From the sequence record PZ495249.1: 64,000 nt of DNA; one strand, given 5' to 3'. Shown here piece after piece: positions 1,627 to 56,553 of the stretch. The position numbers and the translations under genes are program-made. Below the pieces are notes generated by a model. The model worked only from the letters and a program-made list of their open reading frames with translations. It ran no database searches and was not told the origin of the DNA. Numbering within the stretch: the stretch's first letter is position 1; every line of letters begins with the position of its first letter. Source of the stretch: a phage.

Positions 1627-1833
1627 ATGCGAATTCGTATTTATAAACTGGAAGATGGGTATGTAGCTGTTCGTTATGATGATGAAGAGCAGTTTGCAGG
1701 GAACAGTGATCATATTTTATCTTTCCCTAATCTGGAGCCTGTGTTGGCTGTTGGTCGTGAACTCTATGGTTATGACCAGTGTTCAGCAGAACGCTTTGAT
1801 GAACTTGAGTTGGTCAAGGAGTTTGAGGTATGA
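1627..1833 (+). CDS. hypothetical small protein
   Basis: 68 aa ORF; RBS ggagaaaac before ATG; tightly packed with neighbours. Confidence 0.45.
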   Translation: MRIRIYKLEDGYVAVRYDDEEQFAGNSDHILSFPNLEPVLAVGRELYGYDQCSAERFDELELVKEFEV

Positions 1834-2069
1834 AGATTGCTCTCGTAATTGCCGATTGCGGTGATGGTAGCGCCACTATTCGTTTCTTCAAAGATGTTGA
1901 CTTTGCGGAGAAGATCGCTTACCATGATTACTTCTGTGAAGAGTTAGCAATGAGCGAAGGTGGAACAATCATCGAAGTGCCTGATGACTTCAAACCACCC
2001 GCTGGTTGGTCAGATCAAGACTATCGTGAAGAAGTAGAACGTGCAGGGTTGGATTTAGACGATGAGTGA
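1830..2069 (+). CDS. hypothetical small acidic protein
   Basis: 79 aa ORF; ATGA start/stop overlap with upstream gene. Confidence 0.45.
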   Translation: MKIALVIADCGDGSATIRFFKDVDFAEKIAYHDYFCEELAMSEGGTIIEVPDDFKPPAGWSDQDYREEVERAGLDLDDE

Positions 2070-2268
2070 TAAAATTGTCTTGACACGCGAAGAGTTGAAG
2101 ACTATCATTGAAGACGCATTCATAGATGGTTGGAAGCAAGGGCAAGAATCGGATTGGTACGATGCAGAAGACTTTTTGCACTACCACGCCAATCCAGATG
2201 GTTCTGAGGAAGAAACTCAGTCTGAAACAACCATCGCAATCAAAAACTTAATGGAGGAAAAATTATGA
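2062..2268 (+). CDS. hypothetical small protein
   Basis: 68 aa ORF overlapping the stop of the upstream gene. Confidence 0.45.
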   Translation: MSDKIVLTREELKTIIEDAFIDGWKQGQESDWYDAEDFLHYHANPDGSEEETQSETTIAIKNLMEEKL

Positions 2269-3059
2269 GCGAGAAAATTAGTCTGGTGAAACGTCAGGAA
2301 CAACTGGTAATCAGCCTGAAAAAGAAAAAGATTGCACAGATCGTACTGCGCGTTGCATCTGCACTGGATATCTCCGGTAGTATGCACAGCCTATATCGTA
2401 ACGGGACTGTTAGCGATTTCGTTGGTAAACTCCTGCCGTTCGGTATGCAGTTTGACGATAACCAGCAGATCGATATGTGGGCGTTCAACAACTACTCTTC
2501 TGAACTGCCGCCAGCTACCGCTGACGTGTACGATGACTATGTAGGTAAATGTATGCGTAACGTATCCATCAATGGTGGCACGAGCTACGCACCAGTTATC
2601 CAGGCGATCTACGACGAATACTTTGGCTCTACGCCAATGAAAACTGTATCTCGTGAAGTTGAGGTACAAGAGCAGCGTCCGGTGAGCGGTTTCTTTGCCA
2701 AACTGACAGGTAAAACTGAAACCGTTACTGTCAAGAAAACGATCACAGAACAAGTACCAGATACCTCTGCGCCTGTGGATACCACACCTGCAATGGTGTT
2801 CTTCCAGACTGATGGTGAGAACAATGACGAATCCGCAGTACGCGCTGTACTGAACCGTAACAAAGGTAAACCTATCTACTGGTTCATGGTTGGTGTTGGT
2901 AATGCTCGCTTTAGCTTCCTGAAAGCTCTGGCAAATGAATACGATAACGTAGCTTTCATCGGCATTGATGACCTGGATCTGTCTGACGAGCAACTCTATG
3001 ACAAACTGCTGTCTGATGAGTTTGGTCAGTGGGTTGAGAAAGTAGGTGCAAAAAACTAA
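2265..3059 (+). CDS. von Willebrand factor A domain protein with TerD-like N-terminal ISLxK motifs
   Basis: MIDAS DISGS, then GGTSYAPVIQA and FFQTDGENND vWA motifs; N-terminus MSEKISLVK...ISLKK resembles the TerD N-terminus of the next gene; RBS ggagg. Confidence 0.75.
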   Translation: MSEKISLVKRQEQLVISLKKKKIAQIVLRVASALDISGSMHSLYRNGTVSDFVGKLLPFGMQFDDNQQIDMWAFNNYSSELPPATADVYDDYVGKCMRNVSINGGTSYAPVIQAIYDEYFGSTPMKTVSREVEVQEQRPVSGFFAKLTGKTETVTVKKTITEQVPDTSAPVDTTPAMVFFQTDGENNDESAVRAVLNRNKGKPIYWFMVGVGNARFSFLKALANEYDNVAFIGIDDLDLSDEQLYDKLLSDEFGQWVEKVGAKN

Positions 3060-3068
3060 AAATAGTTG

Positions 3069-3096
3069 TTGACTTACCCGAAGAAATACGTAGAAT
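3069..3096 (+). promoter_or_regulatory. sigma70-like promoter TTGACT-N16-TAGAAT upstream of terD
   Basis: -35 TTGACT at 3069..3074, -10 TAGAAT at 3091..3096. Confidence 0.45.
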
Positions 3097-3109
3097 AGAT
3101 TACATCAAA

Positions 3110-3130
3110 GGGGAAGAGCGGTTCTTCCCC
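3110..3130 (+). promoter_or_regulatory. leader hairpin in the terD 5' UTR
   Basis: Perfect 8 bp stem GGGGAAGA/TCTTCCCC with loop GCGGT between the promoter and the RBS. Confidence 0.4.
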
Positions 3131-3164
3131 CCAGTAAATGAAAACAGAAAGAAGGAGAACATAC

Positions 3165-3767
3165 ATGTCTGAGAAAATTTCCCTGAAAAAAGGTTCCACC
3201 GAAAAGATCTCCCTGAAAAAGATCGCACCTCTGCTGAAAGAGATTCGTCTGGAATTCTCCTGGAAATCATCCACTAAACTGGATCTGGACGTAAGCGCAC
3301 TGGTGTGCCGTCATAATGCCTCTGGTAATCCAGAAATGCTGTCTGCCCGTCACCTGGTTTGCTATGCAAACAAAGTTGATCCAGAGCGTTCAACCTTCGC
3401 TGGCGAAGATGTTCGTGATGGTACTGGCAACCTGGAGCAGATCGATGTTACTCTGAGTAAAATCTCCCAGAATGCAGATGAAATTGCATTCGTGATCACC
3501 ATCGACGATGAAACTGGTCAGAAGCGCCTCGGTCATGCCTCCGAAGGTATGCTGAAAATCTTCGACGCAGAACGTAACGTCGAGATCCTGGACTTTGACT
3601 TCCTTGCACCGGAAGTTGCTGGTAACACCATCTGTCACGTAGCTTCGCTGGTTCGCGAAGATGGCGAATGGAAACTGAAAGCCTACGGTGTTGGTAAAGC
3701 AGGTATGGATATCTGTGATGTGGTGGTAGCATTCGGTGGTGACGTCAACTGGTTTGACTGCCCGTAA
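3165..3767 (+). CDS. terD: TerD-family protein (tellurite resistance / stress response)
   Basis: Protein-level resemblance to E. coli TerD as recalled: MSEKISLKKG...ISLKK, DLDVSALVC, DGEWKLKAYGVGKAG; RBS agaaggagaa before ATG at 3165 (ORF track start 3138 is upstream of the RBS). Confidence 0.85.
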   Translation: MSEKISLKKGSTEKISLKKIAPLLKEIRLEFSWKSSTKLDLDVSALVCRHNASGNPEMLSARHLVCYANKVDPERSTFAGEDVRDGTGNLEQIDVTLSKISQNADEIAFVITIDDETGQKRLGHASEGMLKIFDAERNVEILDFDFLAPEVAGNTICHVASLVREDGEWKLKAYGVGKAGMDICDVVVAFGGDVNWFDCP

Positions 3768-3782
3768 GGATTAATCTGCCAC

Positions 3783-3800
3783 GGAGGGCGCAAGCCCTCC
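3783..3800 (+). terminator. GNRA-tetraloop hairpin after terD (terminator or processing site)
   Basis: GGAGGGC-GCAA-GCCCTCC; no T tract follows. Confidence 0.35.
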
Positions 3801-3828
3801 CCACTGAAACTTAAAGAAGGAGAATAAA

Positions 3829-4482
3829 ATGAGTGCATTAGAGAAACTGCGTAGCCTGTTCGAAGAAGATTTTGTTATTGATGTGGACTACAACGCAGCT
3901 AAGAGCCGCAAAGCTACAGCTTTATTTCAAGATGTAAGGGATATGGGTATTCATTTCACCGTCTGCGAGAATTTTGAAGATACTTGGATGGGTAAAACTG
4001 GTTTCACAATTGATAACTGGAACTATATGGGTATCAAAGACGGTGACACCGAGATCGATGACTGCGACTGGAGTGATCGTGATCCTCTCGAAGTAGAAGA
4101 GTTTGAAGAGATGGTTAGTGCAGCAATATCGGAATTCCAGTATCTGCAAAGTTTACCATCTTCAACCACTCTTGCAGTAGGTGTAAATACTGCTCCAGTG
4201 GCAATCGTGTTGGGTGATAATCTGGTAGTTAGCGGTGGTGTAGTTGTCGTCAACTATAAAAACGGTAGTTCTTACCACCTGGAACATGACGGTAAAGCTA
4301 CTCTGATCGTCGCAGACAAGGTGGTAGTCACAGAGCGTACTTTCCTGAAAGATGGTCAACCAGCCTACGAGCGTGTGACTGTCAAACTGGAATCTCTGGA
4401 TAATATTCAGAGCGACACCCTCAAGCTCACCGTCCTTGAAGATGGCGCTAAAGTGGACTTCACCACCACTTTCACACTGTAA
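3829..4482 (+). CDS. hypothetical protein
   Basis: 217 aa ORF; RBS aaggagaa; followed by an intrinsic terminator. Confidence 0.5.
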   Translation: MSALEKLRSLFEEDFVIDVDYNAAKSRKATALFQDVRDMGIHFTVCENFEDTWMGKTGFTIDNWNYMGIKDGDTEIDDCDWSDRDPLEVEEFEEMVSAAISEFQYLQSLPSSTTLAVGVNTAPVAIVLGDNLVVSGGVVVVNYKNGSSYHLEHDGKATLIVADKVVVTERTFLKDGQPAYERVTVKLESLDNIQSDTLKLTVLEDGAKVDFTTTFTL

Positions 4483-4485
4483 CAT

Positions 4486-4511
4486 GAGAGGGGCGAAAGC
4501 CCCTTTCTCTT
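4486..4511 (+). terminator. intrinsic terminator
   Basis: AGGGGC-GAAA-GCCCCT followed by TTCTCTT. Confidence 0.55.
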
Positions 4512-4569
4512 GCAAAATCCTCCCTCCTGTGATAGAATAATAGTTCGTAAAACAAAAAGGAGGCAAAAT

Positions 4570-5094
4570 TTGCTGATACGAAACTTTGTAACAATTGCGT
4601 TACTATCATTAACTGCTTTTACATTTACACCTGTAATCGGCGTTGCCGAAGCTGCAAACGTAAAGACCGCTAAAGTAGTCCACAAGTGTACAAAGCGAGA
4701 TACGAAAGAAAATCTTTTAGCTTGTGCAATGTACGCAGAGAGCCGTAACCAAGGAAAGAAAGGAATGGCTGCTGTCGGTAATGTTGTTCTGAATCGTGTT
4801 AACGATCCTCAGTTCCCTAAGACCGTCAAAGGTGTTCTCTTCCAACCAGGACAATTCTCATACACGTATAAAGGCGCATTTAATGTCGTCGAAAAGGACA
4901 GATGGCAGGAGGCAAAGCATATTGCTGATCGCTTAATCTACCTTGATAAGAACTTCCCCGAAGCTCGTGATGCAACAGATGTAACGAAAGGGGCTAAGTA
5001 TTTCAAAAAGAAGAATATCCGTACCCATTGGGAGAAGGATATGATCTTGGTGTACCGTTACAAGGAACATCAATTCTATATACCTAAGAGCTAA
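4570..5094 (+). CDS. SleB-like cell-wall hydrolase with N-terminal signal peptide (candidate secreted endolysin)
   Basis: AMYAESRNQ...GNVVLNRV...FPKTV...QPGQFS resembles the Hydrolase_2/SleB family; predicted signal peptide MLIRNFVTIALLSLTAFTFTPVIGVAEAA; probable TTG start at 4570 after RBS aggagg. Confidence 0.6.
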   Translation: MLIRNFVTIALLSLTAFTFTPVIGVAEAANVKTAKVVHKCTKRDTKENLLACAMYAESRNQGKKGMAAVGNVVLNRVNDPQFPKTVKGVLFQPGQFSYTYKGAFNVVEKDRWQEAKHIADRLIYLDKNFPEARDATDVTKGAKYFKKKNIRTHWEKDMILVYRYKEHQFYIPKS

Positions 5095-5103
5095 GGAGAA
5101 AAT

Positions 5104-5385
5104 ATGCAGGATAGACATGTAGTGGTGGCGAGTTATTTGATGATTGGACTCACTGAGGAGGATGCTCTGTACATCCGTAAACACCTCGAAAGTTATGGTC
5201 AGATGTTCGTGGAGGAAGATGAGAACCCAAACGTGTTTCACGTAGAGGTTATTCACGACTCTATCTATCCTTGCATAGCTCTCAAGGTTGATGCAGAGGT
5301 GTGGGAACGTTTTTCACGATCTCACGACATGGTAGAACTCAGTGCTACGATGGCACAGAATAACATCTTGGGAGCAGTACATTGA
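5104..5385 (+). CDS. hypothetical protein
   Basis: 93 aa ORF; RBS aaggagaaaat. Confidence 0.45.
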   Translation: MQDRHVVVASYLMIGLTEEDALYIRKHLESYGQMFVEEDENPNVFHVEVIHDSIYPCIALKVDAEVWERFSRSHDMVELSATMAQNNILGAVH

Positions 5386-5846: not shown

Positions 5847-6410
5847 ATGATCTTCCACATTACTCCCTATCTTTCTGGTGATATCGGCAAAGGCATCAAC
5901 GATACCATCCGTGAACTGCCGGAAGATAGTTGGATTTGCTTGAGGGATATCGACACGATGTTCCTACTACCAGAACAACCGATGTGGCTTGAAACCCTCG
6001 TCCGTTCTAACCCAGAGTATGATGTTATTGGTGCATCATGCAACCGCTTGGGATCTACTTACCAATTGTTCGGTAACGAAATAAGTGACGATTCAGACAT
6101 ACGCAATCACATAGAAATTGCGAAAGCAGCCCGAACAGCCTGGGGCAATAGCATTGAAGATGTTCCTCTGGGAGTACCACTTGCAGGATTCTTCTTATTA
6201 TTCAGGAAGAGTTTGTGGCAAGAAATTCCATTCGAAGAAAGATCTATTCAATTCGATTTAATCTTCTCTAATACTCTACACGCAGCAGGAAAGCGATTAG
6301 GAATCATGCGAGGAATGTATCTGTTCCATACTTATCGTCTTGGAGCAATCGATCCACGTAGAGCCATTTCGCATCTCATTCACTGCCAGGATATGGAGAA
6401 GGTAATATGA
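5847..6410 (+). CDS. hypothetical protein, possible small GT-A-like glycosyltransferase
   Basis: 187 aa; RBS ggagggagaa; DxD-like RDID motif; first gene of a three-gene block. Confidence 0.3.
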   Translation: MIFHITPYLSGDIGKGINDTIRELPEDSWICLRDIDTMFLLPEQPMWLETLVRSNPEYDVIGASCNRLGSTYQLFGNEISDDSDIRNHIEIAKAARTAWGNSIEDVPLGVPLAGFFLLFRKSLWQEIPFEERSIQFDLIFSNTLHAAGKRLGIMRGMYLFHTYRLGAIDPRRAISHLIHCQDMEKVI

Positions 6411-6436
6411 TTGATAATTTAAGGAGGATGTTAAAC

Positions 6437-7405
6437 ATGCTTGTTCATAAGCCCCGCTTATATTGTGATAACAAGTTAGGGAGTGGGTGCGACTATCACC
6501 GAGTGGTGATGCCTTTTGCTGATAATAAATTCAAACCAAAAGAGAATGTATTGGTGTTCAACCGTATTTATTCTCGTGGTGCAGAAGAGGTTCGCCGTCT
6601 GAAAGAGCGTGGTGTTAAAGTGGTAGTAGATTTAGATGACTTCTATGAACTTAACCCTGAGCATTACCTGGCAAGCGTGTTCACAAGTCACACACAGAAC
6701 ATCATTGACATGGTGAAATTAGCAGATATTGTTATCGTCACCACTGAATATCTGGCTTACAAGGTAAGGCCACTGAATAGAAATGTGGTGGTTATCCGTA
6801 ACGCACTGCCTTTCGACACTGGTCAGTTTACCCTGAGTGAAGATAAAGAGTCAGACACTCCGCTGATATGGGCGGGTGGTGCAAGTCACTATCCTGATCT
6901 ATCTCTTGTCTCGAACAGTTTTGATGATGATTTGTTAACAATTGCCGGATATGAAGAGCACAAGTCTGCTCCTGCTGGTAGTCATCAGCAATTGACAACT
7001 GCCGAGTGGAGAAAAGTCAGACGTAAGCTACCAAATGCACAATACAAACCAGCAGTACATCATTTAGGCGAGTATATGTCGGTGTACGATGGTCATGCCG
7101 TAGCTATTGCTCCCTTGGTTGATAACGACTTCAATGCTTGTAAAAGCAACTTGAAGATCCTGGAGGCAGGAGCTAAGGGACTACCTATCATTTGTTCTAA
7201 GGTGTTACCATATTATAATCCGGTGGATGCTAACGTGGTGTTTTATGCTGAATCCCGCGCAGAATGGCACTACGAGGTGGTGAAACTTCTTCGTAATCCA
7301 AACTACGCAGAGGATCGTGGTTTAATGCTTGCAGAACACGTCAGAACACATTACAATCTTGATGATGCAAATGAATTGCGCCGACAAGTGATCGAAAGTT
7401 TATAA
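6437..7405 (+). CDS. putative GT-B glycosyltransferase, paralog A
   Basis: Shares DGH.V.IAPLVDN.FN.(A/C)KSNLKILEAGAKGLP.ICS and MDLDD blocks with the next gene; start chosen at third in-frame ATG by RBS spacing (6407 and 6428 also possible). Confidence 0.5.
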   Translation: MLVHKPRLYCDNKLGSGCDYHRVVMPFADNKFKPKENVLVFNRIYSRGAEEVRRLKERGVKVVVDLDDFYELNPEHYLASVFTSHTQNIIDMVKLADIVIVTTEYLAYKVRPLNRNVVVIRNALPFDTGQFTLSEDKESDTPLIWAGGASHYPDLSLVSNSFDDDLLTIAGYEEHKSAPAGSHQQLTTAEWRKVRRKLPNAQYKPAVHHLGEYMSVYDGHAVAIAPLVDNDFNACKSNLKILEAGAKGLPIICSKVLPYYNPVDANVVFYAESRAEWHYEVVKLLRNPNYAEDRGLMLAEHVRTHYNLDDANELRRQVIESL

Positions 7406-7413
7406 GGAGTTCT

Positions 7414-8358
7414 ATGCCTAACATTGTGCTTGACACACGCGACGGACATAATTATAGTGTCTGTGATTTCCATAGAATTATCCTTCCATACAAACGAGCG
7501 CTCACCATTAACCCACAACACAATATCTTCGTGTTCAATGGTGTGCCTACTCGTGGGAAGTCAGGATTCCTGGCTCTCAAACAACTTGGTTTCAAAATGG
7601 TTATGGATCTTGATGACTCTCTACATATTCCAGAAGGACATATGCTTGAGGACTTGTTTGATACCCGTATCCGTGATGACCTCAAGTGGTTTTTGGAACG
7701 GAGTGATTTGGTAACAACAACTACTCCTGCTCTCCAGAAAGAACTCTCAGAATATAATGACAACGTGCATATTGTGCCGAATGGTTTGCCTTTCGATGAA
7801 TGGCAATTCACCATAACAAAGGATCGTTATTCTAAGAGTCCACTGGTGTGGGCTGGCAGTGAAACCCATAAACATGACTTGGCAATCCTACCGCCCCTCG
7901 GTAAGATGCTAACACTCTGCGGATTCCGTAGAGACAAAGAAGAGCTAAGTAGCTTGCAATGGATATTGATACGAGAAGATATTCAACCTGATTGTATCTA
8001 TGAAGGTGTCCGACCATACGCCACTTACATGGAATCGTATGACGGTCATCAGGTGAGCATTGCTCCACTTGTGGATAATCCTTTTAATAATGCAAAAAGC
8101 AATCTCAAGATTCTTGAGGCTGGAGCCAAAGGCTTACCGCTGATTTGTTCTCCTCGTGAGAATTATTTCACCGAAGAGTTTAAGGATCTGGTTTACTTTG
8201 CCGATTCATTATCCGAATGGAAAGATCTGGTAGAATACTTAGTAGAGTCTCCAGATATTTGTGTTGAAAAGGGAATGGCCTTAGCCAAATATGTACGTGC
8301 TCAATACAGTATTGACGCATTAAACGAGACTCGTAGATTACTTATTGAGAGGTTGTAA
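7414..8358 (+). CDS. putative GT-B glycosyltransferase, paralog B
   Basis: Tandem paralog of 6437..7405 with the same conserved C-terminal block. Confidence 0.5.
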   Translation: MPNIVLDTRDGHNYSVCDFHRIILPYKRALTINPQHNIFVFNGVPTRGKSGFLALKQLGFKMVMDLDDSLHIPEGHMLEDLFDTRIRDDLKWFLERSDLVTTTTPALQKELSEYNDNVHIVPNGLPFDEWQFTITKDRYSKSPLVWAGSETHKHDLAILPPLGKMLTLCGFRRDKEELSSLQWILIREDIQPDCIYEGVRPYATYMESYDGHQVSIAPLVDNPFNNAKSNLKILEAGAKGLPLICSPRENYFTEEFKDLVYFADSLSEWKDLVEYLVESPDICVEKGMALAKYVRAQYSIDALNETRRLLIERL

Positions 8359-15899: not shown

Positions 15900-15930
15900 G
15901 GGAGCCTCTTTCGAGGTTCCCTTTTTTATT
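15900..15930. terminator. bidirectional intrinsic terminator between the convergent plus and minus modules
   Basis: GGGAGCCTC-TTTC-GAGGTTCCC flanked by an A run upstream and TTTTTTATT downstream; SSB ends at 15886 and the minus-strand gene ends at 15929. Confidence 0.7.
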
Positions 15931-17080
15931 ACACAGCATTTACGGATAAGTAGGAGCTATCAGAAGCAACCACCGTACCTTGATATGTGGCAGTACATCC
16001 TATCCTGCACCCGCCATCGCCTACTCCAGTAATAAGACCATTACTATCAACCGTAGCCACTGTAGGATCTGTTGTGGTATAAGTGATAACCATATCTGAT
16101 AACGACGCTGCACCATCTGGTGTTATCGTTGCCACAAGTTGTTGTGTAGTCCCTACACTCATTGCACTCAAGCTTTCAGTGTACACGCTTAATGTAGATG
16201 CATAGCCTCCAGAACTATCAGAGAGCGTTGTTCCAACATTGTTTTTAGCTGTTAAACTTGCATCGAAACCACCTTCACTAACAAACGACATTAGCCCATT
16301 AGTATCAATGGTCATAATAGAAGTATTACTTGAAGCATAAACTTTATCTGTTATTGGTGCTCCGGTTGGAGTAACAGAGTATGTTAATTGTTTCGTGCCT
16401 CCCACTATTGCAATACCGATGGAATCTGTGGTAATGCTTGTGGCTGTCGGTACTATACTGGTCATGATAGTTAGATCGTCTATTTTACCACGCAGCATTA
16501 GCGCGTTATCTGTAGTCCCAGCAATACAGAAGGGATTAGCAGTATTTCCCCCGAAACCCTTAGAAATAGTTAAAACAGATCCGAGAAAGACATTATCTTT
16601 CTTCACATACAAGCTACTCCCTGACTTCGTTATTGTCAGTCGAAACCAAGTATTAACTGGTAGTGCAGCAGTCCCAAAACGAAATCTTTGGACTTCCCCT
16701 GTCGTGCTGTAGCCATCTATACTAACGGATGCGAATACTTGATACGTATTGTTTAAGGTTATCCACCAACTACCAGAACCAGCATTGTTATTCAAGTTAC
16801 CGCATAGAATAGCTTGAGAGGTGTTATCTAAATATAACCATGTGTCTATAAGTAGGTCGGTAGTAGTCCCAACCACAAGACCAGTAGGTAGGCCACCAGA
16901 CGGGTTTGTAACGGTTATTTTACTATTAGATGTTCCACTAAATATGAGCGAACCTTTCCCTGATGCCGAATCTGTAGACTCGGCAACACCTGCACCCAAG
17001 GTAACTACACCGAATTCTTGCAAGCGTTTAACGATGTAGTTTACGTAAGGCTTTCCTCCGGCGAGTAACACTTCAAGCAT
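15929..17080 (-). CDS. LamG/concanavalin-like domain protein with Ig-like repeats (virion-associated)
   Basis: 383 aa; N-terminal MLEVLLAGGKP motif shared with 55897..56553; Thr/Ser-rich beta-rich sequence. Confidence 0.5.
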   Translation of the reverse strand: MLEVLLAGGKPYVNYIVKRLQEFGVVTLGAGVAESTDSASGKGSLIFSGTSNSKITVTNPSGGLPTGLVVGTTTDLLIDTWLYLDNTSQAILCGNLNNNAGSGSWWITLNNTYQVFASVSIDGYSTTGEVQRFRFGTAALPVNTWFRLTITKSGSSLYVKKDNVFLGSVLTISKGFGGNTANPFCIAGTTDNALMLRGKIDDLTIMTSIVPTATSITTDSIGIAIVGGTKQLTYSVTPTGAPITDKVYASSNTSIMTIDTNGLMSFVSEGGFDASLTAKNNVGTTLSDSSGGYASTLSVYTESLSAMSVGTTQQLVATITPDGAASLSDMVITYTTTDPTVATVDSNGLITGVGDGGCRIGCTATYQGTVVASDSSYLSVNAV

Positions 17081-17089: not shown

Positions 17090-17758
17090 TTAACTAATAA
17101 ATGTATTAGGTACAGCAGGTAGATTCTGCTTACTTGTCGCCTCGTATGTTGCTTTCAAGACAGTCAGATAATTTTGTACCACAACACCCCATTGCTTCAT
17201 AGCTTCATCAATTAGGCCAAGGGTATCTGTTTTATTTAGTGGATTTGACACACCTTCTTTCAGATTGATCAGATAAGTATCGGTGGCAGTTCCGCTGGTA
17301 GCAGACGTTTTGATAATATTTAATAGTGCCATACCATCTGCTGTCATTTGCAGGGTGTAATTTTGACCTGCGTATGTAACAGTGATACCTGTGAAACCAT
17401 CTTGAATAAAGATGTTATACAAGTTAGCTGCTTGACCTTGTTTTCTTTGTGCAAGATCTGCTGCGGCTTCTTGTTCATCAAAATCACGTACAACATAAGT
17501 ACGGTAGAATTTACCATCTGCCCCTTGCACTGGAGTGACTTCTGTAATAACATCACCATCAGGAATAGGTGAATCGAAAATCACAGCATAACCAAACTCT
17601 TCAAGAATGTAATCTCGGCAAGGGTATGGATAACTGATGTTAGTGTTAGAAGCACGAATAGCAGGGAAATAAATAGGCCAAGAAAGATCAGCCATATTAA
17701 TTAACGGGGTGTAATCATAAACCAAAGTAAAATCTTCGATTGAAGTAGTTTCTTCCAT
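17090..17758 (-). CDS. hypothetical tail-fibre-associated protein
   Basis: 222 aa; RBS ggaggaata; immediately downstream of the collagen-like fibre gene. Confidence 0.4.
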   Translation of the reverse strand: MEETTSIEDFTLVYDYTPLINMADLSWPIYFPAIRASNTNISYPYPCRDYILEEFGYAVIFDSPIPDGDVITEVTPVQGADGKFYRTYVVRDFDEQEAAADLAQRKQGQAANLYNIFIQDGFTGITVTYAGQNYTLQMTADGMALLNIIKTSATSGTATDTYLINLKEGVSNPLNKTDTLGLIDEAMKQWGVVVQNYLTVLKATYEATSKQNLPAVPNTFIS

Positions 17759-17803: not shown

Positions 17804-20296
17804 TTAAGCGTAACCACCTGGTTTGAAACCAAGTAGGCTCGTTCCGTCCCATAACAGACTAACTGTGCAACGTCCAGTGGTGTAGGTTGGAGCCGTTCCA
17901 TCTGTCCAGTTGATTGTGTTAGTCCATGACACTGAACCTGTATTACCAGTGAAGATAACAACAATGGTCATCGCTCTACCCGCTGGTAGGTTAGTAATCG
18001 TTAGGGTTTTGCTTGATGCCAGAGAGACAGTAAACACTTGTCCCTGACTTGCGTCAAGTGTAGCAGTTGCAGTAGATACAGCCAAATCGTAACGATTTAG
18101 ACGAGTCCACACACCACCGCTTTGCATGTAATATCCATCTGTGGTAGGGGCTTTCGCCAGTGTTTCTACCCAAGCTGTATCTTTACGTGCATAAACTTTC
18201 CCATCAGCAGGAGCATCTGAGATTCCTGGAGAAGGAATCGTAAACGCTGTCCAACCACCGTCTTTACGAGCGTACATAGAGCCATCGCTTGGTGCGTCAT
18301 AGACGTTACCACCACCCATGTAACCCATAGAAGCCCAGTTAAGGCTGCTGGTTTTCTGGAAGAACTGTAGTGTTAAGGAGTTTAGGAAGTAGTCGCCTAC
18401 ACGTCCGTCAGCAGGTCCAGGGTTACGCTGCAATACGATCCACAGTGTACCTTGATCACCCTTATCACCTTTCACACCCTGCGCACCTTGCGGTCCCGCT
18501 GGTCCCTGGATATTACCTGCGTTCTGGTATGATCCATTTCCTGAGCTATCTACGTTCCAAACCCAGAAGTTGCCATCAATCAGATAACCTTCACCGATGG
18601 TTCCAGTTGCAGGAAGATCTGCGGTTGAATCAAGTTCACCAAGGATCTTAACCCCTGGTCCCATAGGACCTGGAATACCCTGAATACCTTGTTCCCCTTG
18701 AATACCCTGCTCACCCTGGATACCTTGTGGACCGCTGTTCACGCCCATATCGATCCAAGCTGTACCGCTCCAGATGTATGAACGCTGGTGAATGTAGTAC
18801 ATGTCACCTTGAATGTTACCAGTGGTAGGTAGGTCTGAGGTGTTACTTAGTTCACCCTTCGCATGAATAGAATTACCAGTGGCTCCTGTTGCACCTTGTT
18901 CCCCTTGGATGCCACGAAGAACACCCATATCCACCCAACCTTCACTCTTGTCAAAGTTTAGCGTATAGATGTAAAGATTGCCAGTGTCTTCTAAGCTATA
19001 TGCGCTACCGTATGGAGGCTTAACTGGAAGATCGCTTGCAGATGGTACTTGACCTTTAGCGGTGATTGAGATACCTTGTAGAACACCAGCGTTGAGCCAT
19101 TCACCAGTTCCTGCAACAGGATCTATTGCTACCCAAATATAGATGTATTTATCAGGACCGACTAAGTAAGCTGTACCATAATTAACATCTTCCGGCGGAG
19201 GTAATTGACTTTCGTTATCTACTTCACCTACGATGTTAAGACCTGTACCAGGAACACCTTGGATACCAGGTACACCTTGCTCGCCTTGGATACCTTGTTC
19301 ACCTCTATCTCCTTTATCTCCCTTCAGAGATGCAAGGAAATCGGCTTCGGAACCAAAGTTACCAGCATTAATCCAGATTTGGTAAGCGGAGTCCCCGTCT
19401 TTACCATCTGCACCGTTTGTACCAGCATTACCTTTGTCTCCCTTATCCCCTTTGTCGCCTTTCGGACCGACAATAGCTCCCATGTCCACCCACGCAGTAC
19501 CGTTAGATACGTAGAGGTAGGTTCCATAGCTCCATGCCTGAGATACGTTAGCTGGAGATGGTAGTGGCAGTAGTCCAGGATCAGAGATAGCACCCTGATA
19601 ATCAAATCCGTTAGCGTTTACACCAGGATCACCTTTCTGTCCTTGTGGACTTGGATCACCTTTATCGCCCTTGATGGATTGAACGAAGTCAAGCTCTGTA
19701 CCTGTGTTACCAACGTCTAACCAACTTTGATACGCAGATTTACCTTCCGGTCCCACTTGACCAACAGGCGACCATTGGATACTATCCCATACCCACATTT
19801 GCTCTTGAACAATATATGCATCACCAGGAGAGTTTCCTGTCATAGGTAGGTCGGATACAGAATCAAAGCTTCCTTTGATTACAAGACCACTACCTGTATC
19901 TCCTTTCAGAGAATCAAGCCATTCTTGTTCAGTACCGACGAAGCCATTATCTACCGCAATATCATATGCAGATTTACCAGCTTCTGGAATTTGTGTAGCG
20001 AGGTCGTCGATCTCTTGTTGAATAGTTGTGAACTTGGCATTGATAATAGCAATATCGTCAGCTTTACCAACGTTAACCCAAGTGTTAACACCGATGCCAC
20101 CTGTAGAACCAGGGGTAGAGTTTGCTGGAACGACTTTCGGTAAAGCGCCCTTCCATTGATAGTAGTTACCGTCTGTATCGTACAGTAATACTTCTCTTGC
20201 ATTTGTTAATGTAAAGCCAGCTACAAAGCTTCTACGCTTTCTGTAGGTAGCTTCGACCATATCAGCAATAGCGCTATTAGGTCTTGTTAGAATCAT
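17804..20296 (-). CDS. tail fibre protein with collagen-like Gly-X-Y repeats
   Basis: 830 aa; GXY tracts such as GPQGIQGEQGIQGEQGIQGIPGPMGPG and GPKGDKGDKGDKGNAGTNGADGKDG. Confidence 0.7.
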   Translation of the reverse strand: MILTRPNSAIADMVEATYRKRRSFVAGFTLTNAREVLLYDTDGNYYQWKGALPKVVPANSTPGSTGGIGVNTWVNVGKADDIAIINAKFTTIQQEIDDLATQIPEAGKSAYDIAVDNGFVGTEQEWLDSLKGDTGSGLVIKGSFDSVSDLPMTGNSPGDAYIVQEQMWVWDSIQWSPVGQVGPEGKSAYQSWLDVGNTGTELDFVQSIKGDKGDPSPQGQKGDPGVNANGFDYQGAISDPGLLPLPSPANVSQAWSYGTYLYVSNGTAWVDMGAIVGPKGDKGDKGDKGNAGTNGADGKDGDSAYQIWINAGNFGSEADFLASLKGDKGDRGEQGIQGEQGVPGIQGVPGTGLNIVGEVDNESQLPPPEDVNYGTAYLVGPDKYIYIWVAIDPVAGTGEWLNAGVLQGISITAKGQVPSASDLPVKPPYGSAYSLEDTGNLYIYTLNFDKSEGWVDMGVLRGIQGEQGATGATGNSIHAKGELSNTSDLPTTGNIQGDMYYIHQRSYIWSGTAWIDMGVNSGPQGIQGEQGIQGEQGIQGIPGPMGPGVKILGELDSTADLPATGTIGEGYLIDGNFWVWNVDSSGNGSYQNAGNIQGPAGPQGAQGVKGDKGDQGTLWIVLQRNPGPADGRVGDYFLNSLTLQFFQKTSSLNWASMGYMGGGNVYDAPSDGSMYARKDGGWTAFTIPSPGISDAPADGKVYARKDTAWVETLAKAPTTDGYYMQSGGVWTRLNRYDLAVSTATATLDASQGQVFTVSLASSKTLTITNLPAGRAMTIVVIFTGNTGSVSWTNTINWTDGTAPTYTTGRCTVSLLWDGTSLLGFKPGGYA
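18460..19435 (-). repeat. coding collagen-like GXY repeat region inside the tail fibre gene
   Basis: Five or more interrupted Gly-X-Y tracts; approximate boundaries. Confidence 0.6.
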
Positions 20297-20362: not shown

Positions 20363-23300
20363 TTACGTCGTTGGTACATCGTTTGGAGTTGGACGAATTA
20401 CCGCAGTGTTACCCACTGAAACATTACTTGCGTCGTTAGGAACAGTTTTAATTCTAATTCCAGCCGCAGTAGCTGTTTGAATAGGATCGGCAATATCAAT
20501 CTTGACAGGGTTTGTCCACAGGTCATTATCTTGATATGGTGCGCGGGTAATTACAGTATCGAGATCTGCACCACCTGCACCTGCCCCAGGAATACGGATA
20601 CGTGTTCCGGCTGATAATGGGTAATGGTATAACCAAGAAGCGTTTGTCGCCGTTCCATTTGGTACTAAGTTCTGAGCCAGTGATTTATCGCCAACAGTTG
20701 TTGCACGAATTCCGAATGCTGCAATATCTGGGATATATGCACCACTTGTCGTAACAAGGAAGAACGTGTTATCTGCTTTAACGATCATGTCACCTTTATC
20801 AAACTCTTTCCCAGTTGGGAAGTGCAGACCATCAATGTTTCTGCTTGGGTTAGCTTCCAGGTAATAAACCTTTCCGGTAGAACCAAGAAGAGCACCAATT
20901 CCGCCAGCGATGTTGGTATACATGTTGGCTTCAACGTTACAGTTGACACGGTGAATGTCAGAGTAACGGCAACGGCTCCATGCTGGACGACCACTAACCA
21001 TTGTGTTACCATTTGGGTAGCAGTTTACGTTAACCATTTCAAGAACAGATTTCTCGCGACGGAAGAATCCATCGTAGAATGTACCTGGTCCTGACTCTGG
21101 TTGACCAACACACTCGAAGCTGTTACAAGTGATGTTTGACATTGACAGCCAAGAAGCAATACCGAATAGCTGTAGTGCAGCACAACGGATGTTCTCGAAG
21201 CTCACACGGTTTTCAAATCCTGGTCCTGCTGAAACACCTGCGAACACACGCCCTGTGCGGGTATGAACGTTCTTAACAGAGTAGTTGAAGCAAGGGTTTG
21301 AAGGTCTACCTTGTGGTGGCTGAACTGGTTGTCCATCCGGTCCCAATACTGGGTTAGTACCCCACTCCAAGTAAATCAGACGGATATTACTTGCTGGAGT
21401 GTTAGCATCAGTTTTAGGTTCACCGTAAACACCGTCAATCGTGAAGTCTTTGCTTCCGTACATTACCACTGCACCTGTTGCTAAACCAGTACCTGTCGAA
21501 ACAGTCTGATCAGGATCACCGTGGATGTTCTCAATAGTAATGTTACGTCCAACTTCTACGTGAACAATTTGACGACAACGTTTTGCAAACACGTTGCGGA
21601 TTGTGATATTCTTACAGTATTGACTGTCTGGGATATCGTAACCATATGGTCCCTGTCCTGCCACACCGATACCGATACCCCAGTTGGAGTTAGCGATAGG
21701 AGCGTTTGTACCGTCAATGTTAGACAGATAGATGTTCTCGATCACACAACCATCATCATAGTGTTTACTGATAACGTTAAGTTCGATAGCATCACCTTGC
21801 ATATCCATGAAGGTAAGGTTGCGGAATACACCACGAGTTACAGGCTCACCAGTACCTTGTTGAAGAATACCGTATAAACCGTTTTTGAAGGTACAGTTGT
21901 CAATCTCGAATGTACCCGTGATTGGGTTGCCCTGGAATACCAGGCTACCAACTTGTCCTGCGCGTGGCGCACCGTCCCACAGGCAGTCGTAGATACGAAC
22001 TGCACCACCCCAATACATAACGCGAGCGTTACGGAAGGTTACACCTTCTAAGGTAGCATTTTGTAAACGATAGTCACGTTGACCACGGAATACACCACCT
22101 TTCAGCGTGATACCAGTGATATCAAAGCTGCTTGTAGTGAAAGTCATGTCACACCCGTAGGCGTTCAACACTTTCCCTTTGCTGTTAGCAGTTGCTGTCA
22201 GAGCCGCCTGGAAAGCTGCTTCTGGTGTGGTGTATTTTGAATTGTTCGCAAACTCAGACAAGTAAACAACGTCGAACAGATCGTTGAATACACCACCGTG
22301 TGGTGTTAGAAGCGCTTCTGTGTTCGTCAGAACCCAAGTGGTAGGGCTAACCCCTCCGCTGCTTTCTAAAGTGTCTGTAGCTGAAATTGTCTTAGGTAGA
22401 GTACCAGCCCAACGATAACGACCTGAACCCATACCGATAGTTTGGTTCTTGATAGTTAAAGTAGCTGCGTTACCGAAGCTCGTTGGCAGGTGAACAAATT
22501 GTCCACGTTCAACAGCCAGTGCAGCAAGGTCAACTGTACCACCTGAGTAAGTTAACACACCTGTTGCAGAAAGGCTACCGAAGTTACCGCTAATACCTAC
22601 TGGTAGAGTGTACGCTGCTTGGGTTGTAGGATCGTAAAGAGCCTTAATCCCTGTTAGAGACTGCCCTGTTTGTGCTAAACCAACTTCTGCATCTTTCAGA
22701 CCGAACTTACGTGCCACAATCTGTGTTGGAACTTTACTCATCTGAGTCGTCAGATCAGAAGTAGTAGTTTCCAGTGCAGTAACACGGTTTGCCAGGTTAG
22801 GATCGTTATCTGCGGCAGCTACAATTTTACCAATGTACGCAAACAGTTTGTTAGGTAGTCCAGTAGCAGGATCTAAACCAAGAGGTTCAGAAAGAATGAT
22901 CTTGCTGTCCTGAATAGTATACGCATCACCAACAATCTGCACAACCCCGTTGATAGTTACGATAGCACTATCAAACACGTATGGAGGGCTGATAACTTTC
23001 TCATAACCTGTTGCGCCAGTGTACAACCAAGGGTATACTTCGTTAGCAAGCTGTTCAGTTTTCATAGCCCAGAGAACCCAGTTATTATCTCCTACTGGAG
23101 TCCCTTGCATAGGGATTGGGTTAGCGGTTGTCGCTGTTGGAGCGTAGTAATACCCACTCAGAATCCCATTCTGGAAGAAACGGAGTTGGTTAAATACTGT
23201 TTCATTAGTACCTGCCGCCCAAGCGACAGGGCTTTTGAAATAGAAGTTATCAAGCAACGCTTTACGCAGCGTAGGAATTAAACCTGTTTCAGTTTCAACC

Positions 23301-23407
23301 GTAGCTGTCGCAGCACCGTTAATAACATCGTGCAACTGGTTAGAAGAGAAAATAACCAGGTCAACACCCTGATCGAGTGTTGTAGCAGGATATGTTGGAA
23401 ATGCCAT
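20363..23407 (-). CDS. tailspike protein with right-handed beta-helix (pectate-lyase-like, candidate depolymerase)
   Basis: 1014 aa; long run of N/G/T/V-rich beta-helix-type repeats (NITIRN, NITIEN). Confidence 0.6.
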   Translation of the reverse strand: MAFPTYPATTLDQGVDLVIFSSNQLHDVINGAATATVETETGLIPTLRKALLDNFYFKSPVAWAAGTNETVFNQLRFFQNGILSGYYYAPTATTANPIPMQGTPVGDNNWVLWAMKTEQLANEVYPWLYTGATGYEKVISPPYVFDSAIVTINGVVQIVGDAYTIQDSKIILSEPLGLDPATGLPNKLFAYIGKIVAAADNDPNLANRVTALETTTSDLTTQMSKVPTQIVARKFGLKDAEVGLAQTGQSLTGIKALYDPTTQAAYTLPVGISGNFGSLSATGVLTYSGGTVDLAALAVERGQFVHLPTSFGNAATLTIKNQTIGMGSGRYRWAGTLPKTISATDTLESSGGVSPTTWVLTNTEALLTPHGGVFNDLFDVVYLSEFANNSKYTTPEAAFQAALTATANSKGKVLNAYGCDMTFTTSSFDITGITLKGGVFRGQRDYRLQNATLEGVTFRNARVMYWGGAVRIYDCLWDGAPRAGQVGSLVFQGNPITGTFEIDNCTFKNGLYGILQQGTGEPVTRGVFRNLTFMDMQGDAIELNVISKHYDDGCVIENIYLSNIDGTNAPIANSNWGIGIGVAGQGPYGYDIPDSQYCKNITIRNVFAKRCRQIVHVEVGRNITIENIHGDPDQTVSTGTGLATGAVVMYGSKDFTIDGVYGEPKTDANTPASNIRLIYLEWGTNPVLGPDGQPVQPPQGRPSNPCFNYSVKNVHTRTGRVFAGVSAGPGFENRVSFENIRCAALQLFGIASWLSMSNITCNSFECVGQPESGPGTFYDGFFRREKSVLEMVNVNCYPNGNTMVSGRPAWSRCRYSDIHRVNCNVEANMYTNIAGGIGALLGSTGKVYYLEANPSRNIDGLHFPTGKEFDKGDMIVKADNTFFLVTTSGAYIPDIAAFGIRATTVGDKSLAQNLVPNGTATNASWLYHYPLSAGTRIRIPGAGAGGADLDTVITRAPYQDNDLWTNPVKIDIADPIQTATAAGIRIKTVPNDASNVSVGNTAVIRPTPNDVPTT

Positions 23408-50449: not shown

Positions 50450-50524
50450 TGGTTGTAGCAGATGGAATCGAACCATCATCAATCGGTTATCAGCCGAACG
50501 TATTAGCCGTTATACTATGCCACA
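50450..50524 (-). tRNA. tRNA-Ile (anticodon GAT)
   Basis: 7 bp acceptor with encoded CCA, loop CTGATAA, T arm GATGG-TTCGATT-CCATC; hand-folded. Confidence 0.55.
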
Positions 50525-50530
50525 ATTGTT

Positions 50531-50613
50531 TGGCATCCAGGTGAGGAATCTAACCCCTTGAAACTGGTTTTGGAGGCCAGCAACGGGAACACCCATTTTT
50601 AATCTACCCAGAT
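50531..50613 (-). tRNA. tRNA-like element, possibly Trp (CCA) with aberrant D region
   Basis: Acceptor pairs with two G/U wobbles; loop CTCCAAA; T loop TTAGATT lacks C56; D region about 7 nt too long. Confidence 0.25.
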
Positions 50614-50619
50614 ATTGTT

Positions 50620-50695: not shown

Positions 50696-50776
50696 CTTTT
50701 GGTTGATAGTAAGAGAATCAAACTCTTCTCACAACGCCGTATGAAAGCGTCCGAAACATCAGCTTCACACTATCAA

Positions 50777-51359: not shown

Positions 51360-51367
51360 ATTTAATT

Positions 51368-51582: not shown

Positions 51583-51588
51583 ATTGTT

Positions 51589-55896: not shown

Positions 55897-56553
55897 TTAA
55901 TCTACGACAAACGGTGTAGTTGGAACAGAGAAGTTAGCATTATATCTGGCAACTTTACTGATGCGGATCTGATCAATATCACCAAACATTGTAGCTTCAC
56001 CAAAGCCGATTCGAGCTATGGCTGTAGCCAGTCCCCAACCGCCAGAAGCAAATCCAGCGCCAGTTACAGCCGTCGAACCATTGACATACAACTTAGTTAC
56101 ACCGTCCTTGTTAACCAAGGCAATGTGTGTCCAGTTAGTAAGAGGCCAAAAGTTACCATTGAAAGTTAATCCGGCAGATTGATCTCTCAAAGTAATGGTT
56201 CCACCATTGTTTCGCAAATAACTCTGTGTATTGTTACCAGCAAAGTATAACCACCAAGATCCAGCAATACTGTTGTTTCTTGACCACCATTCAATTGTGT
56301 AGTCTTGATTAGCAGCAAAAACCAAATCTGCTCTTTCGGATGCAATCATTTCGAAATAGTTCGGTGAACTTGTGCAAGTAAACATCTTATTGTTAAACTT
56401 TGCCACACTCGAAGTCGTTACCGTTGGTACTTTCGAAAAGGCTCGCGTTGGCTTTGCCTGGTCTACACCACCTTTATCTGCCTGTAACAGTAATAGTGTA
56501 CTGTTTGGCTGAGGTGTTGGTGGCTTGCCACCTGCTAACATTGTTTCTAACAT
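55897..56553 (-). CDS. LamG/concanavalin-like domain protein, paralog of 15929..17080
   Basis: 218 aa; N-terminal MLETMLAGGKP shared with the other LamG gene; Trp/Asn/Gly-rich lectin-like sequence. Confidence 0.5.
   Translation of the reverse strand: MLETMLAGGKPPTPQPNSTLLLLQADKGGVDQAKPTRAFSKVPTVTTSSVAKFNNKMFTCTSSPNYFEMIASERADLVFAANQDYTIEWWSRNNSIAGSWWLYFAGNNTQSYLRNNGGTITLRDQSAGLTFNGNFWPLTNWTHIALVNKDGVTKLYVNGSTAVTGAGFASGGWGLATAIARIGFGEATMFGDIDQIRISKVARYNANFSVPTTPFVVD

What the first reader, a model, noticed from the sequence alone, without database searches (positions are those of the whole stretch)
15929..17080. Two LamG-like proteins sharing an N-terminal MLExxLAGGKP motif at distant loci
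The gene at 15929..17080 (end of the tail module) and the gene at 55897..56553 (beyond the tRNA array) begin with almost the same 11 residues and both continue into lectin-like domains. A shared N-terminal anchor with divergent C-terminal binding domains suggests alternative or accessory host-binding or decoration proteins.
Basis: seen in the sequence. Interest (0 to 1): 0.4.

Follow-up and report, generated by a model that had tools for sequence, protein, structure and literature searches.

The report
Shared N-terminal tag on phage lectin proteins
Two lectin-fold proteins of this large tailed phage start with the same 11-residue tag, a version of a short tag that related phages put on many virion proteins with sugar- or ligand-binding folds, probably to plug them into the virus particle.

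Summary
Genes at 15929..17080(-) and 55897..56553(-) begin MLEVLLAGGKP and MLETMLAGGKP (9/11 identical). Their LamG cores are only about 18% identical, and six of the eight shared residues that have synonymous codons use different codons.

The window is a Vequintavirinae/phi92-like myophage. Gene A is tag + LamG + two Big_2 domains. Its C-terminal half is 72% identical to the phi92 gp152 tail protein. Its LamG half is a stand-alone gene in relatives such as GAP31_106. Gene B is tag + LamG (phrog_3545).

AlphaFold leaves the tag unstructured, outside the fold. The same tag (M-x-E-x-[LM]-L-x-G-G-K) heads other domains in relatives: phrog_6011 jelly-rolls, RCC1 propellers and a glycine-rich protein. 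In jumbo phages (CBB, XbC2) orthologous domains carry MLPFPxLxxYGN instead, in arrays of 9-11 genes.

Published mass spectrometry finds such proteins in virions: CBB_548, a homologue of B, and W70_237-239, which carry MLE-type tags.

Best reading: a short docking tag on exchangeable virion adhesin domains. Docking itself is inferred. A T4-like capsid-targeting signal is the main rival. The tag appears to be undescribed.

The parts
15929..17080 (-). Gene A, 383 aa: N-terminal tag + LamG jelly roll + two Big_2 domains. It is the last gene of the tail-fibre operon.
   Evidence: ORF; Pfam; PHROG. The exact protein is present on 8 independent metagenome contigs, including a 153,725-bp one.
17048..17080 (-). 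Codons 1-11 of A: tag MLEVLLAGGKP.
   Evidence: AF2 pLDDT is 39 for residues 1-10, outside the fold.
16451..17047 (-). A residues 12-210: ConA-like/LamG domain ('A-type'). Orthologues are stand-alone proteins of about 203-220 aa, such as GAP31_106 and P0001-P0008.
   Evidence: pLDDT about 90. Foldseek PDB E 2e-8 to BoNT HCN lectin domains. BFVD top hit is GAP31 K4F6R3, TM 0.88. Homologues.
15932..16450 (-). A residues 211-383: two Big_2 Ig-like domains, 72-74% identical to phi92 gp152 and related Justusliebigvirus 'tail protein' genes.
   Evidence: Pfam Big_2 at 48.8 bits, 2 stretches. tblastn. phrog_11922 'tail protein' E 2.4e-83.
55897..56553 (-). Gene B, 218 aa: N-terminal tag + LamG jelly roll ('B-type', phrog_3545). 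It lies just upstream of the tRNA array.
   Evidence: ORF. Pfam Laminin_G_3 at 39.2 bits. phrog_3545 E 1.6e-36. tRNAs.
56521..56553 (-). Codons 1-11 of B: tag MLETMLAGGKP.
   Evidence: In 21 family members E3 is invariant and M1, L6 and G9 are at least 90% conserved. AF2 residues 1-17 have pLDDT below 50.
55900..56502 (-). B residues 18-218: LamG domain. It is homologous from residue 18 on to CBB_548, a virion protein of phage CBB.
   Evidence: BLASTP 32% identity over 205 aa, E 3e-26, starting at residue 18 in both proteins. Foldseek.

Best explanation
A and B are two members of a widespread family of small accessory virion proteins of large myoviruses. Each consists of an N-terminal tag of about 10-12 residues that is unstructured on its own, followed by a beta-rich ligand-binding module: a LamG/ConA-like jelly roll here, and RCC1 or Kelch propellers or other jelly rolls in relatives.

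I infer that the tag is a docking peptide that inserts into one common site on the particle, so that different binding domains can be displayed and exchanged like cassettes. The lectin and Ig-like domains would then make weak, multivalent contacts with surface glycans.

Gene A arose when a stand-alone tag+LamG gene (the GAP31_106 type) was joined to the Big_2 x2 module of the last tail-operon gene (the phi92 gp152 / PVP-SE1 gene 40 type). This replaced that gene's own MYPIP-type N-terminus.

Shown:
- the domain architecture;
- conservation and modularity of the tag;
- lineage-specific replacement of the tag;
- virion presence of homologues.

Inferred:
- docking by the tag;
- an external location;
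- glycan binding.
For: (1) The tag is far better conserved than the domains. It is 9/11 identical, against about 18% identity for the LamG cores by hhalign, E 3e-5. Synonymous codons have diverged.

(2) The tag lies outside the fold. pLDDT is below 50 for A residues 1-10 and B residues 1-17.

(3) The same MLE-type tag heads unrelated domains.
- GAP31_108 and FENT2 CDS0216: phrog_6011, starting MEEMLLTGG.
- GAP31_106, starting MQEMLLGG.
- PVP-SE1 gp010, true GTG start giving MKELLLVGG.
- W70_237-239: RCC1 propellers, starting MLEMLNLG...
- The L020 RCC1 propeller, starting MFEMMLAGGK.
- Three consecutive L018 genes, including a Gly_rich_2 protein.
- In 21 sequences M1 and E3 are 100% conserved and L6 is 81% conserved.

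(4) Orthologous domains in jumbo phages carry a different tag, MLPFPxLxxYGN.
- XbC2_587 corresponds to GAP31_108.
- CBB_548 corresponds to B, with homology starting exactly after the tag.
- These genes sit in arrays of 9-11 consecutive genes.

(5) Tags in one genome resemble each other more than tags in other genomes: 8.49 against 6.76 identities out of 12, with 0 of 5000 permutations reaching the observed difference. This is expected if they co-evolve with one partner.

(6) Virion mass spectrometry supports a structural role.
- CBB_536, 537, 548, 549, 551, 552 and 553 are listed as structural proteins (PMC5259590).
- W70_237-239 gave 141-233 spectra although they are encoded far from the structural module (PMC11370258).

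(7) The repertoire attached to the tag is limited to binding-type folds: LamG, RCC1, Kelch, Big_2 and Gly-rich. No enzymes or DNA-binding domains were found.

(8) A sits in the tail-fibre operon and carries Big_2 domains.

(9) There is a precedent. N-terminal docking peptides of 7 to 11 residues attach secondary receptor-binding proteins in K1-5/K1E/SP6 and in KP34 ('MALxxLV'). See PMC6872550; a 2026 paper's abstract (PMC13352976, seen) reports experimental validation of this docking.
Against: - There is no direct evidence that A or B themselves are in virions.
- No binding partner has been identified.
- No solved phage structure contains a homologue.
- The 2026 phi92 cryo-EM paper does not mention gp152.
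- B and its Seunavirus homologues sit among small non-structural genes.
- Known docking peptides belong to trimeric tailspikes, not to small lectin domains.
- Within GAP31 the three tags are much less alike than A and B are here.
- The within-genome similarity of tags could partly reflect local duplication or gene conversion rather than co-evolution with a partner.
Confidence: 0.55

Rival explanations
1. The tag is a capsid-targeting sequence like that of the T4 internal proteins. It would direct diverse proteins into the prohead core so that they are packaged inside the head, and possibly injected. It may be trimmed by the prohead protease.
For: [quoted passage not shown] That is the same genetic pattern as seen here: diverse proteins, one N-terminal peptide of about 10 aa, genes outside the structural module and often in arrays. 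Virion mass spectrometry does not separate inside from outside. E3 is invariant, and T4-type prohead proteases cut after Glu (my own knowledge). The W70 authors suspected a role inside the capsid.
Against: The peptide does not end in a conserved (L/I)xE site. In A and B the only Glu is residue 3. In the MLPFP class the corresponding position varies between Q, E and K. The attached folds are lectins, propellers and Ig-like domains typical of surface adhesins, not small basic proteins or enzymes. A is acidic, pI 4.5. A and the MYPIP-type relatives are encoded in the tail-fibre operon with Big_2 domains.
Confidence: 0.2
2. This is plain paralogy with no special role for the tag. A(1-210) and B would be diverged copies of one LamG family, and the N-terminus is simply a slowly evolving part needed for folding, stability or expression.
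For: Both LamG types belong to, or sit next to, phrog_3545. hhalign links the cores. MAFFT aligns A's tag region with the tag region of the A-type family.
Against: The tag is not part of the predicted fold. It occurs on non-homologous folds such as RCC1 and Kelch propellers and a Gly-rich protein. It is exchanged wholesale between lineages while the domain remains orthologous. An mRNA-level constraint is unlikely given the codon divergence.
Confidence: 0.12
3. These are non-virion proteins. The tag would address intracellular or secreted phage proteins to some other machinery, such as a chaperone, a protease or a modification enzyme.
For: B lies among small uncharacterised genes next to NadV and the tRNA array. 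The GAP31 and FENT2 homologues lie in non-structural regions.
Against: Mass spectrometry finds seven tag-bearing CBB proteins and three W70 proteins in purified virions. The tag has no hydrophobic signal-like stretch and no lipobox (from the sequence itself).
Confidence: 0.1
4. The similarity of two N-termini is due to chance.
For: The pairwise BLAST E-value of 0.002 is modest on its own.
Against: The anchored-match probability is about 3e-5 for the whole window. The motif is also conserved across dozens of relatives.
Confidence: 0.01

Closest known systems
Conserved N-terminal docking peptides of secondary receptor-binding proteins (K1-5/K1E/SP6 hepta- and undecapeptides; KP34-like 'MALxxLV'; KP32 second RBP). 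Sources: Latka et al. 2019, PMC6872550; experimental validation reported in the abstract of PMC13352976.
   Same: A very short conserved peptide (7-11 aa) at the extreme N-terminus is shared by proteins whose distal domains differ. The consensus is specific to each lineage. The hydrophobic pattern is loosely similar (M-A-L-x-x-L-V against M-L-E-x-x-L-A).
   Different: The known cases are large trimeric tailspikes or depolymerases of podoviruses that dock on a T4gp10-like branching domain. Here the cargo is small lectin, propeller or Ig modules of large myoviruses. No partner is identified and binding is untested. The resemblance is functional analogy, not shown homology.
T4 capsid targeting sequence (CTS) of internal proteins IPI-III and Alt (PMC3012670)
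   Same: A conserved N-terminal peptide of about 10 residues sits on otherwise diverse proteins. The genes lie outside the main structural module and are often clustered. The proteins are found in virions.
   Different: No (L/I)xE cleavage site at the end of the peptide. The cargo folds are adhesin-like. One member (A) is encoded in the tail-fibre operon.
Phage CBB structural proteins CBB_536/537/548/549/551/552/553 and XbC2_581-591 (Mimasvirus)
   Same: CBB_548 is a homologue of B (32% identity, phrog_3545). XbC2_582 is 44.7% identical to A's LamG. The architecture is the same: tag + one beta-rich domain. Mass spectrometry places the CBB proteins in virions.
   Different: The tag is MLPFPxLxxYGN instead of MLExxLAGGK. 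The genes form long arrays. The phages are 360-380-kb jumbo phages. The published work does not mention the shared N-terminus.
phi92 gp152 / PVP-SE1 gene 40 / ALITA 719-aa protein: the last gene of the tail-fibre operon (phrog_11922, phrog_32204)
   Same: Same operon position. The Big_2 x2 module is 72-74% identical to A's C-terminal half. The module is variable: none in phi92, an RCC1 propeller before the Big_2 domains in PVP-SE1, a long extension after them in ALITA, and LamG before them here.
   Different: These proteins start MYPIP(L/C)F, not MLExxLAGGK. A's N-terminal 210 residues come from a different gene family.
Escherichia phage W70 virion proteins W70_237-239 (Vequintavirinae; PMC11370258)
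   Same: MLE-type tag (MLEMLNLG..). They are stand-alone proteins encoded far from the structural module and are proven virion components.
   Different: The cargo is an RCC1-like propeller, not LamG. They are labelled 'regulator of chromosome condensation' in the paper and in PHROGs.

Membership tests
Pfam PF13385 Laminin_G_3 (ConA-like lectin/glucanase superfamily) | Sequence match above the curated gathering score (27.6 bits) | tested here: met
   B scores 39.2 bits, E 1e-9. A scores only 25.5 bits, just below the cut-off, so A is not met by sequence alone.
Pfam PF13385 Laminin_G_3 (ConA-like lectin/glucanase superfamily) | Two-sheet jelly-roll fold resembling solved ConA-like lectin domains | tested here: met
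   AF2 gives A residues 11-210 pLDDT about 90 and the B core 70-88. Foldseek PDB probability is 1.0 to BoNT HCN, the arabinanase CBM, sialidase lectin domains and galectins.
Pfam PF13385 Laminin_G_3 (ConA-like lectin/glucanase superfamily) | Carbohydrate or other ligand binding | not testable with these tools
   No ligand-site analysis was possible. This needs glycan arrays or binding assays.
phrog_3545 (stand-alone phage LamG proteins) | Full-length HMM match | tested here: met
   B: E 1.6e-36 over residues 2-216. CBB_548: E 8e-37. Full-length A gives no phrog_3545 hit at E<=0.01, although its orthologue GAP31_106 does (2.2e-9) and FENT2 CDS0218 is annotated phrog 3545. A is therefore a borderline member.
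phi92 gp152-type terminal tail protein (phrog_11922 / phrog_32204) | Big_2 x2 module and position as last gene of the tail-fibre operon | tested here: met
   A residues 211-383: phrog_11922 E 2.4e-83. 72-74% identity to Justusliebigvirus genes. Synteny.
phi92 gp152-type terminal tail protein (phrog_11922 / phrog_32204) | MYPIP-type N-terminus | tested here: not met
   phi92, PVP-SE1 and ALITA start MYPIP(L/C)F. A starts MLEVLLAGGKP.
N-terminal docking-peptide RBP systems (K1-5/SP6/KP34 type) | Short conserved N-terminal peptide shared by proteins with divergent distal domains | tested here: met
N-terminal docking-peptide RBP systems (K1-5/SP6/KP34 type) | Partner protein with a T4gp10-like branching domain in the same phage | tested here: inconclusive
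   The two neighbouring fibre/spike proteins carry Tail_spike_N (PF18668). No T4gp10-like domain was specifically detected or searched for by profile-profile methods.
N-terminal docking-peptide RBP systems (K1-5/SP6/KP34 type) | Cargo is a trimeric tailspike or fibre with an enzymatic or fibrous domain | tested here: not met
   The cargo is LamG, Big_2, RCC1 or Kelch modules of 170-400 aa. No beta-helix or enzyme domain was found.
N-terminal docking-peptide RBP systems (K1-5/SP6/KP34 type) | Physical binding of the peptide to the partner | not testable with these tools
   No multimer prediction or experiment was available.
T4-type capsid targeting sequence (internal proteins) | Conserved N-terminal peptide of about 10 aa on diverse proteins found in virions | tested here: met
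   The family is defined in PMC3012670.
T4-type capsid targeting sequence (internal proteins) | Prohead-protease site (L/I)xE at the end of the peptide | tested here: not met
   A and B have only E3 and no Glu at positions 4-17. The MLPFP class has Q, E or K at the equivalent position. That the T4 site is (L/I)xE is my own knowledge.
T4-type capsid targeting sequence (internal proteins) | Location inside the capsid | not testable with these tools
   Needs accessibility assays or cryo-EM.

The most novel reading that the evidence does not exclude
The tags are universal 'plugs' for conserved sockets on the virions of many large myoviruses: Vequintavirinae, Mimasvirus, Iapetusvirus and PCH45-like phages. 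There would be two plug classes for two sockets. One class is MLExxLxGGK, equivalent to MLPFPxLxxYGN. The other is MYPIPxF, equivalent to MLPFPIIS. This would form a cassette display system through which phages shuffle lectin and propeller heads. It could account for undetermined features such as the tail 'whiskers' of CBB-type phages, and it could be used to display foreign proteins on virions.
Probability: 0.3. Interest if true: 0.7.

Novelty: new variant of a known kind. Interest (0 to 1): 0.5.

Why it matters
If the tag is a docking peptide, about 11 residues would be enough to load lectin, propeller or Ig modules onto the particles of a broad set of large myoviruses, including therapeutic-candidate Vequintavirinae. 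That would have four consequences.

- It would explain why virion proteins are encoded far from the structural genes.
- It would correct 'chromosome condensation' annotations of RCC1-like virion proteins.
- It would point to the unknown components of accessory structures on jumbo phages.
- It would offer a minimal handle for engineering host range or displaying cargo.

The result also shows how a tail gene (A) was rebuilt by capturing a stand-alone tag+LamG gene.

Tried and rejected
- **Recent duplication or gene conversion of the 5' ends.** Rejected: DNA identity is 20/33 with different synonymous codons.
- **A as an assembly artefact or read-through.** Rejected: the identical 383-aa protein is on 8 independent contigs.
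- **The tag as the first strand of the jelly roll.** Rejected by AF2.
- **Megablast of the region against phages.** Only marginal hits, no close sequenced relative.
- **Profile search of 1.84 billion representatives with the B family.** The top hits were swamped by giant multi-LamG proteins. It yielded only two more small members.
- **PDB sequence searches.** No phage structure contains a homologue.
- **Literature.**
  - No paper was found linking Vequintavirinae and LamG.
  - No paper was found linking RCC1, jumbo phages and an N-terminus.
  - The XacN1, RsoM2USA, FLC6, phAPEC6 and jumbo-phage review papers do not describe the tag.
  - The PVP-SE1 and phi92 J Virol papers are not held.
- **The 'tail carbohydrate esterase' label of the ALITA homologue.** Pfam, PDB and PHROG searches could not confirm it, so it is not used as evidence.
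- **CB7_55 as a possible family member.** Not supported.
- **A strict IMG/VR scan for MLExxLAGGK.** Most of the 18 hits were chance internal matches. Only L018 and L020 were informative.

Full report
**Observation.** Two ORFs lie on the minus strand exactly where stated: A at 15929..17080 (383 aa) and B at 55897..56553 (218 aa).
- They begin MLEVLLAGGKP and MLETMLAGGKP. BLASTP aligns only these 11 residues (9/11, E 0.002) and nothing else.
- Both ATGs lie within 3 codons of an upstream in-frame stop. The motif occurs at no other N-terminus in the six-frame translation.
- My estimate of a chance N-terminally anchored match of this quality is about 3e-5 for the whole window.
- At DNA level the 33 nt are 20/33 identical. 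Six of the eight shared residues with degenerate codons use different codons. The peptide is therefore conserved by selection on the protein and was not copied recently.

**What the genes are.** The window belongs to a Vequintavirinae/Stephanstirmvirinae-like myophage with no close sequenced relative.
- B matches Pfam Laminin_G_3 above threshold and matches phrog_3545 over its full length.
- A has a sub-threshold Laminin_G_3 match and two Big_2 domains.
- AlphaFold2 models A residues 11-210 as a confident jelly roll (pLDDT about 90) and the B core at moderate confidence. The first 10 residues of A and the first 17 of B have pLDDT below 50 and lie outside the fold.
- Foldseek places both in the ConA-like lectin fold.
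- The two LamG cores are only distantly related: hhalign gives 18% identity, E 3e-5.

**A is a fusion.**
- Its C-terminal 174 residues are 72-74% identical to phi92 gp152 and its Justusliebigvirus homologues. That gene occupies the same place, last in the tail-fibre operon.
- Its N-terminal 210 residues have only stand-alone homologues of 203-220 aa.
- These homologues include GAP31_106 and FENT2 CDS0218, which lie in a non-structural region about 4-6 kb from those phages' B homologues.
- The same operon slot is variable elsewhere. PVP-SE1 gene 40 is MYPIPCLF + RCC1 propeller + Big_2 x2. phi92 gp152 is MYPIPLF + Big_2 x2. ALITA has a 719-aa version.
- The fused A protein is real: the identical sequence is found on eight metagenome contigs.
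- Neighbouring genes are a phrog_4998 protein (17090..17758), a collagen-like fibre with Tail_spike_N (17804..20296) and a colanidase-type tailspike (20363..23407).

**The tag is a module, not a peculiarity of this pair.**
- In the B family (21 sequences, down to 40% identity) E3 is invariant and M1, L6 and G9 are at least 90% conserved. More distant members keep the motif.
- PVP-SE1 gp010 keeps it once the start is moved to an upstream GTG.
- The same MLE-type tag heads other domains:
  - GAP31_108 and FENT2 CDS0216, phrog_6011, starting MEEMLLTGG;
  - the three RCC1-like propellers W70_237-239, starting MLEMLNLG..;
  - an RCC1 propeller on contig L020, starting MFEMMLAGGK;
  - three consecutive genes of a 287-kb contig (L018), including a Gly_rich_2 protein;
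  - two adjacent PhiEaH1 proteins.
- Over 21 such sequences the consensus is M-x-E-x-[LM]-L-x-G-G-K.

**A second tag flavour on orthologous domains.**
- In jumbo phages the same domain families carry MLPFPxLxxYGN or MIPFxRMLKYGN instead.
- There are 11 consecutive genes in Xanthomonas phage XbC2, 9 on metagenome contig L003 and 9 in Pectobacterium phage CBB.
- XbC2_587 is the phrog_6011 counterpart of GAP31_108.
- CBB_548 is a B homologue whose similarity (32%, E 3e-26) starts exactly at residue 18, after the tag.
- XbC2_582 and P0005 are A-type LamG proteins.
- MAFFT aligns A's LLAGGKPY with LIKYGGTPY of these proteins. The two flavours are therefore probably homologous.
- A minority variant, MLPFPIIS.., resembles the MYPIP start of phi92 gp152 and PVP-SE1 gene 40.
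- Tags within a genome are more alike than tags between genomes: 8.49 against 6.76 out of 12, with 0 of 5000 permutations reaching this.
- The cargo repertoire found is LamG, other jelly rolls, RCC1, Kelch, RCC1+Kelch, Gly-rich and Big_2. No enzymes or nucleic-acid-binding domains were found.

**Virion evidence from the literature.**
- ESI-MS/MS of purified CBB virions lists CBB_536, 537, 548, 549, 551, 552 and 553 as structural proteins, with 2-8 peptides and up to 50.7% coverage (PMC5259590). All of them carry the tag.
- In the Vequintavirinae phage W70, W70_237-239 were detected with 141-233 spectra although they are encoded about 100 genes away from the structural module. W70_130, the homologue of the window gene next to A, was detected too (PMC11370258).
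- Neither paper mentions the common N-terminus.
- The jumbo-phage review, the phi92 cryo-EM paper and the other papers read do not mention it either.

**Mechanism.** The best-supported reading is that the tag is a docking peptide. It is short, flexible, outside the domain, portable between folds and evolving in concert within a genome. It would attach exchangeable lectin, propeller or Ig modules to one site of the particle.
- This works like the 7- to 11-residue peptides that attach secondary receptor-binding proteins in K1-5/SP6 and in KP34 ('MALxxLV') (PMC6872550; PMC13352976 abstract).
- It is not a member of those systems. The cargo is not a trimeric spike, and no T4gp10-like partner was identified.
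- The main rival is a T4-like capsid-targeting sequence (PMC3012670), which has the same genetic signature.
- I rank the rival lower for three reasons. There is no (L/I)xE site at the end of the peptide. The cargo folds are adhesin-like. A and the MYPIP-type proteins are encoded in the tail-fibre operon with Big_2 domains.
- Docking, external location and glycan binding are inferences. None was testable here.

**Verdict.** The proteins themselves are members of known but uncharacterised families. The shared tag and its two flavours across Vequintavirinae and jumbo phages appear to be undescribed in the literature I could search. I classify it as a new variant of the known docking-peptide principle, of moderate interest.

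Noticed in passing
window 50450-55838 (-): An array of 23 tRNA genes. One, at 54066-54140, has anticodon CTA (ARAGORN calls it tRNA-Pyl) and is a possible amber-suppressor tRNA.
   Followed up: no
L033 (PVP-SE1, NC_016071.1) 6752-7417: The RefSeq start of PVP-SE1 gp010 (6809) appears to be 19 codons too far downstream. A GTG at 6752, right after two stop codons, gives MKELLLVGGRAGP..., restoring the conserved tag.
   Followed up: partly
L045 (PhiEaH1, NC_023610.1) 779-1459: PhiEaH1 gp002 is probably annotated with a start that is too early. An internal Met gives MEANLLGGQK, an MLE-type tag. The adjacent gp003 starts MFESNLMGKK.
   Followed up: no
L001 (phi92) 5959-7621 and L036 (ALITA) 2459-4618: phi92 gp152 (202 aa) and gp153 (annotated 'no RBS, weak statistics') may correspond to a single 719-aa ORF in phage ALITA that begins almost identically. 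If so, the phi92 gene would be split or truncated; gp153 was not compared with the ALITA protein.
   Followed up: partly
L035 (W70) 1645-5143; PHROG phrog_4219: RCC1-like beta-propeller virion proteins are labelled 'regulator of chromosome condensation' and filed under nucleotide metabolism. The label seems to derive only from the fold name.
   Followed up: partly
window 17090-17758 (-): The 222-aa protein just upstream of A (phrog_4998, unknown function) has a homologue, W70_130, that mass spectrometry detected in W70 virions. It could be a partner of A, but this was not examined.
   Followed up: no
window 17804-20296 (-): An 830-aa tail fibre combining a Tail_spike_N domain, collagen triple-helix repeats, many G-x-x and 'GDKGD' repeats, and a Fibritin_C-like end.
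   Followed up: no
window 57245-58942 (-): A 565-aa ORF close to B looks like a nicotinamide phosphoribosyltransferase (NadV). This is by eye only and was not checked with a tool.
   Followed up: no
The word-indexed protein search with A(1-215) did not return the full-length A protein, although that exact protein is on record on 8 contigs. Absence from that search is therefore not evidence of absence.
   Followed up: no
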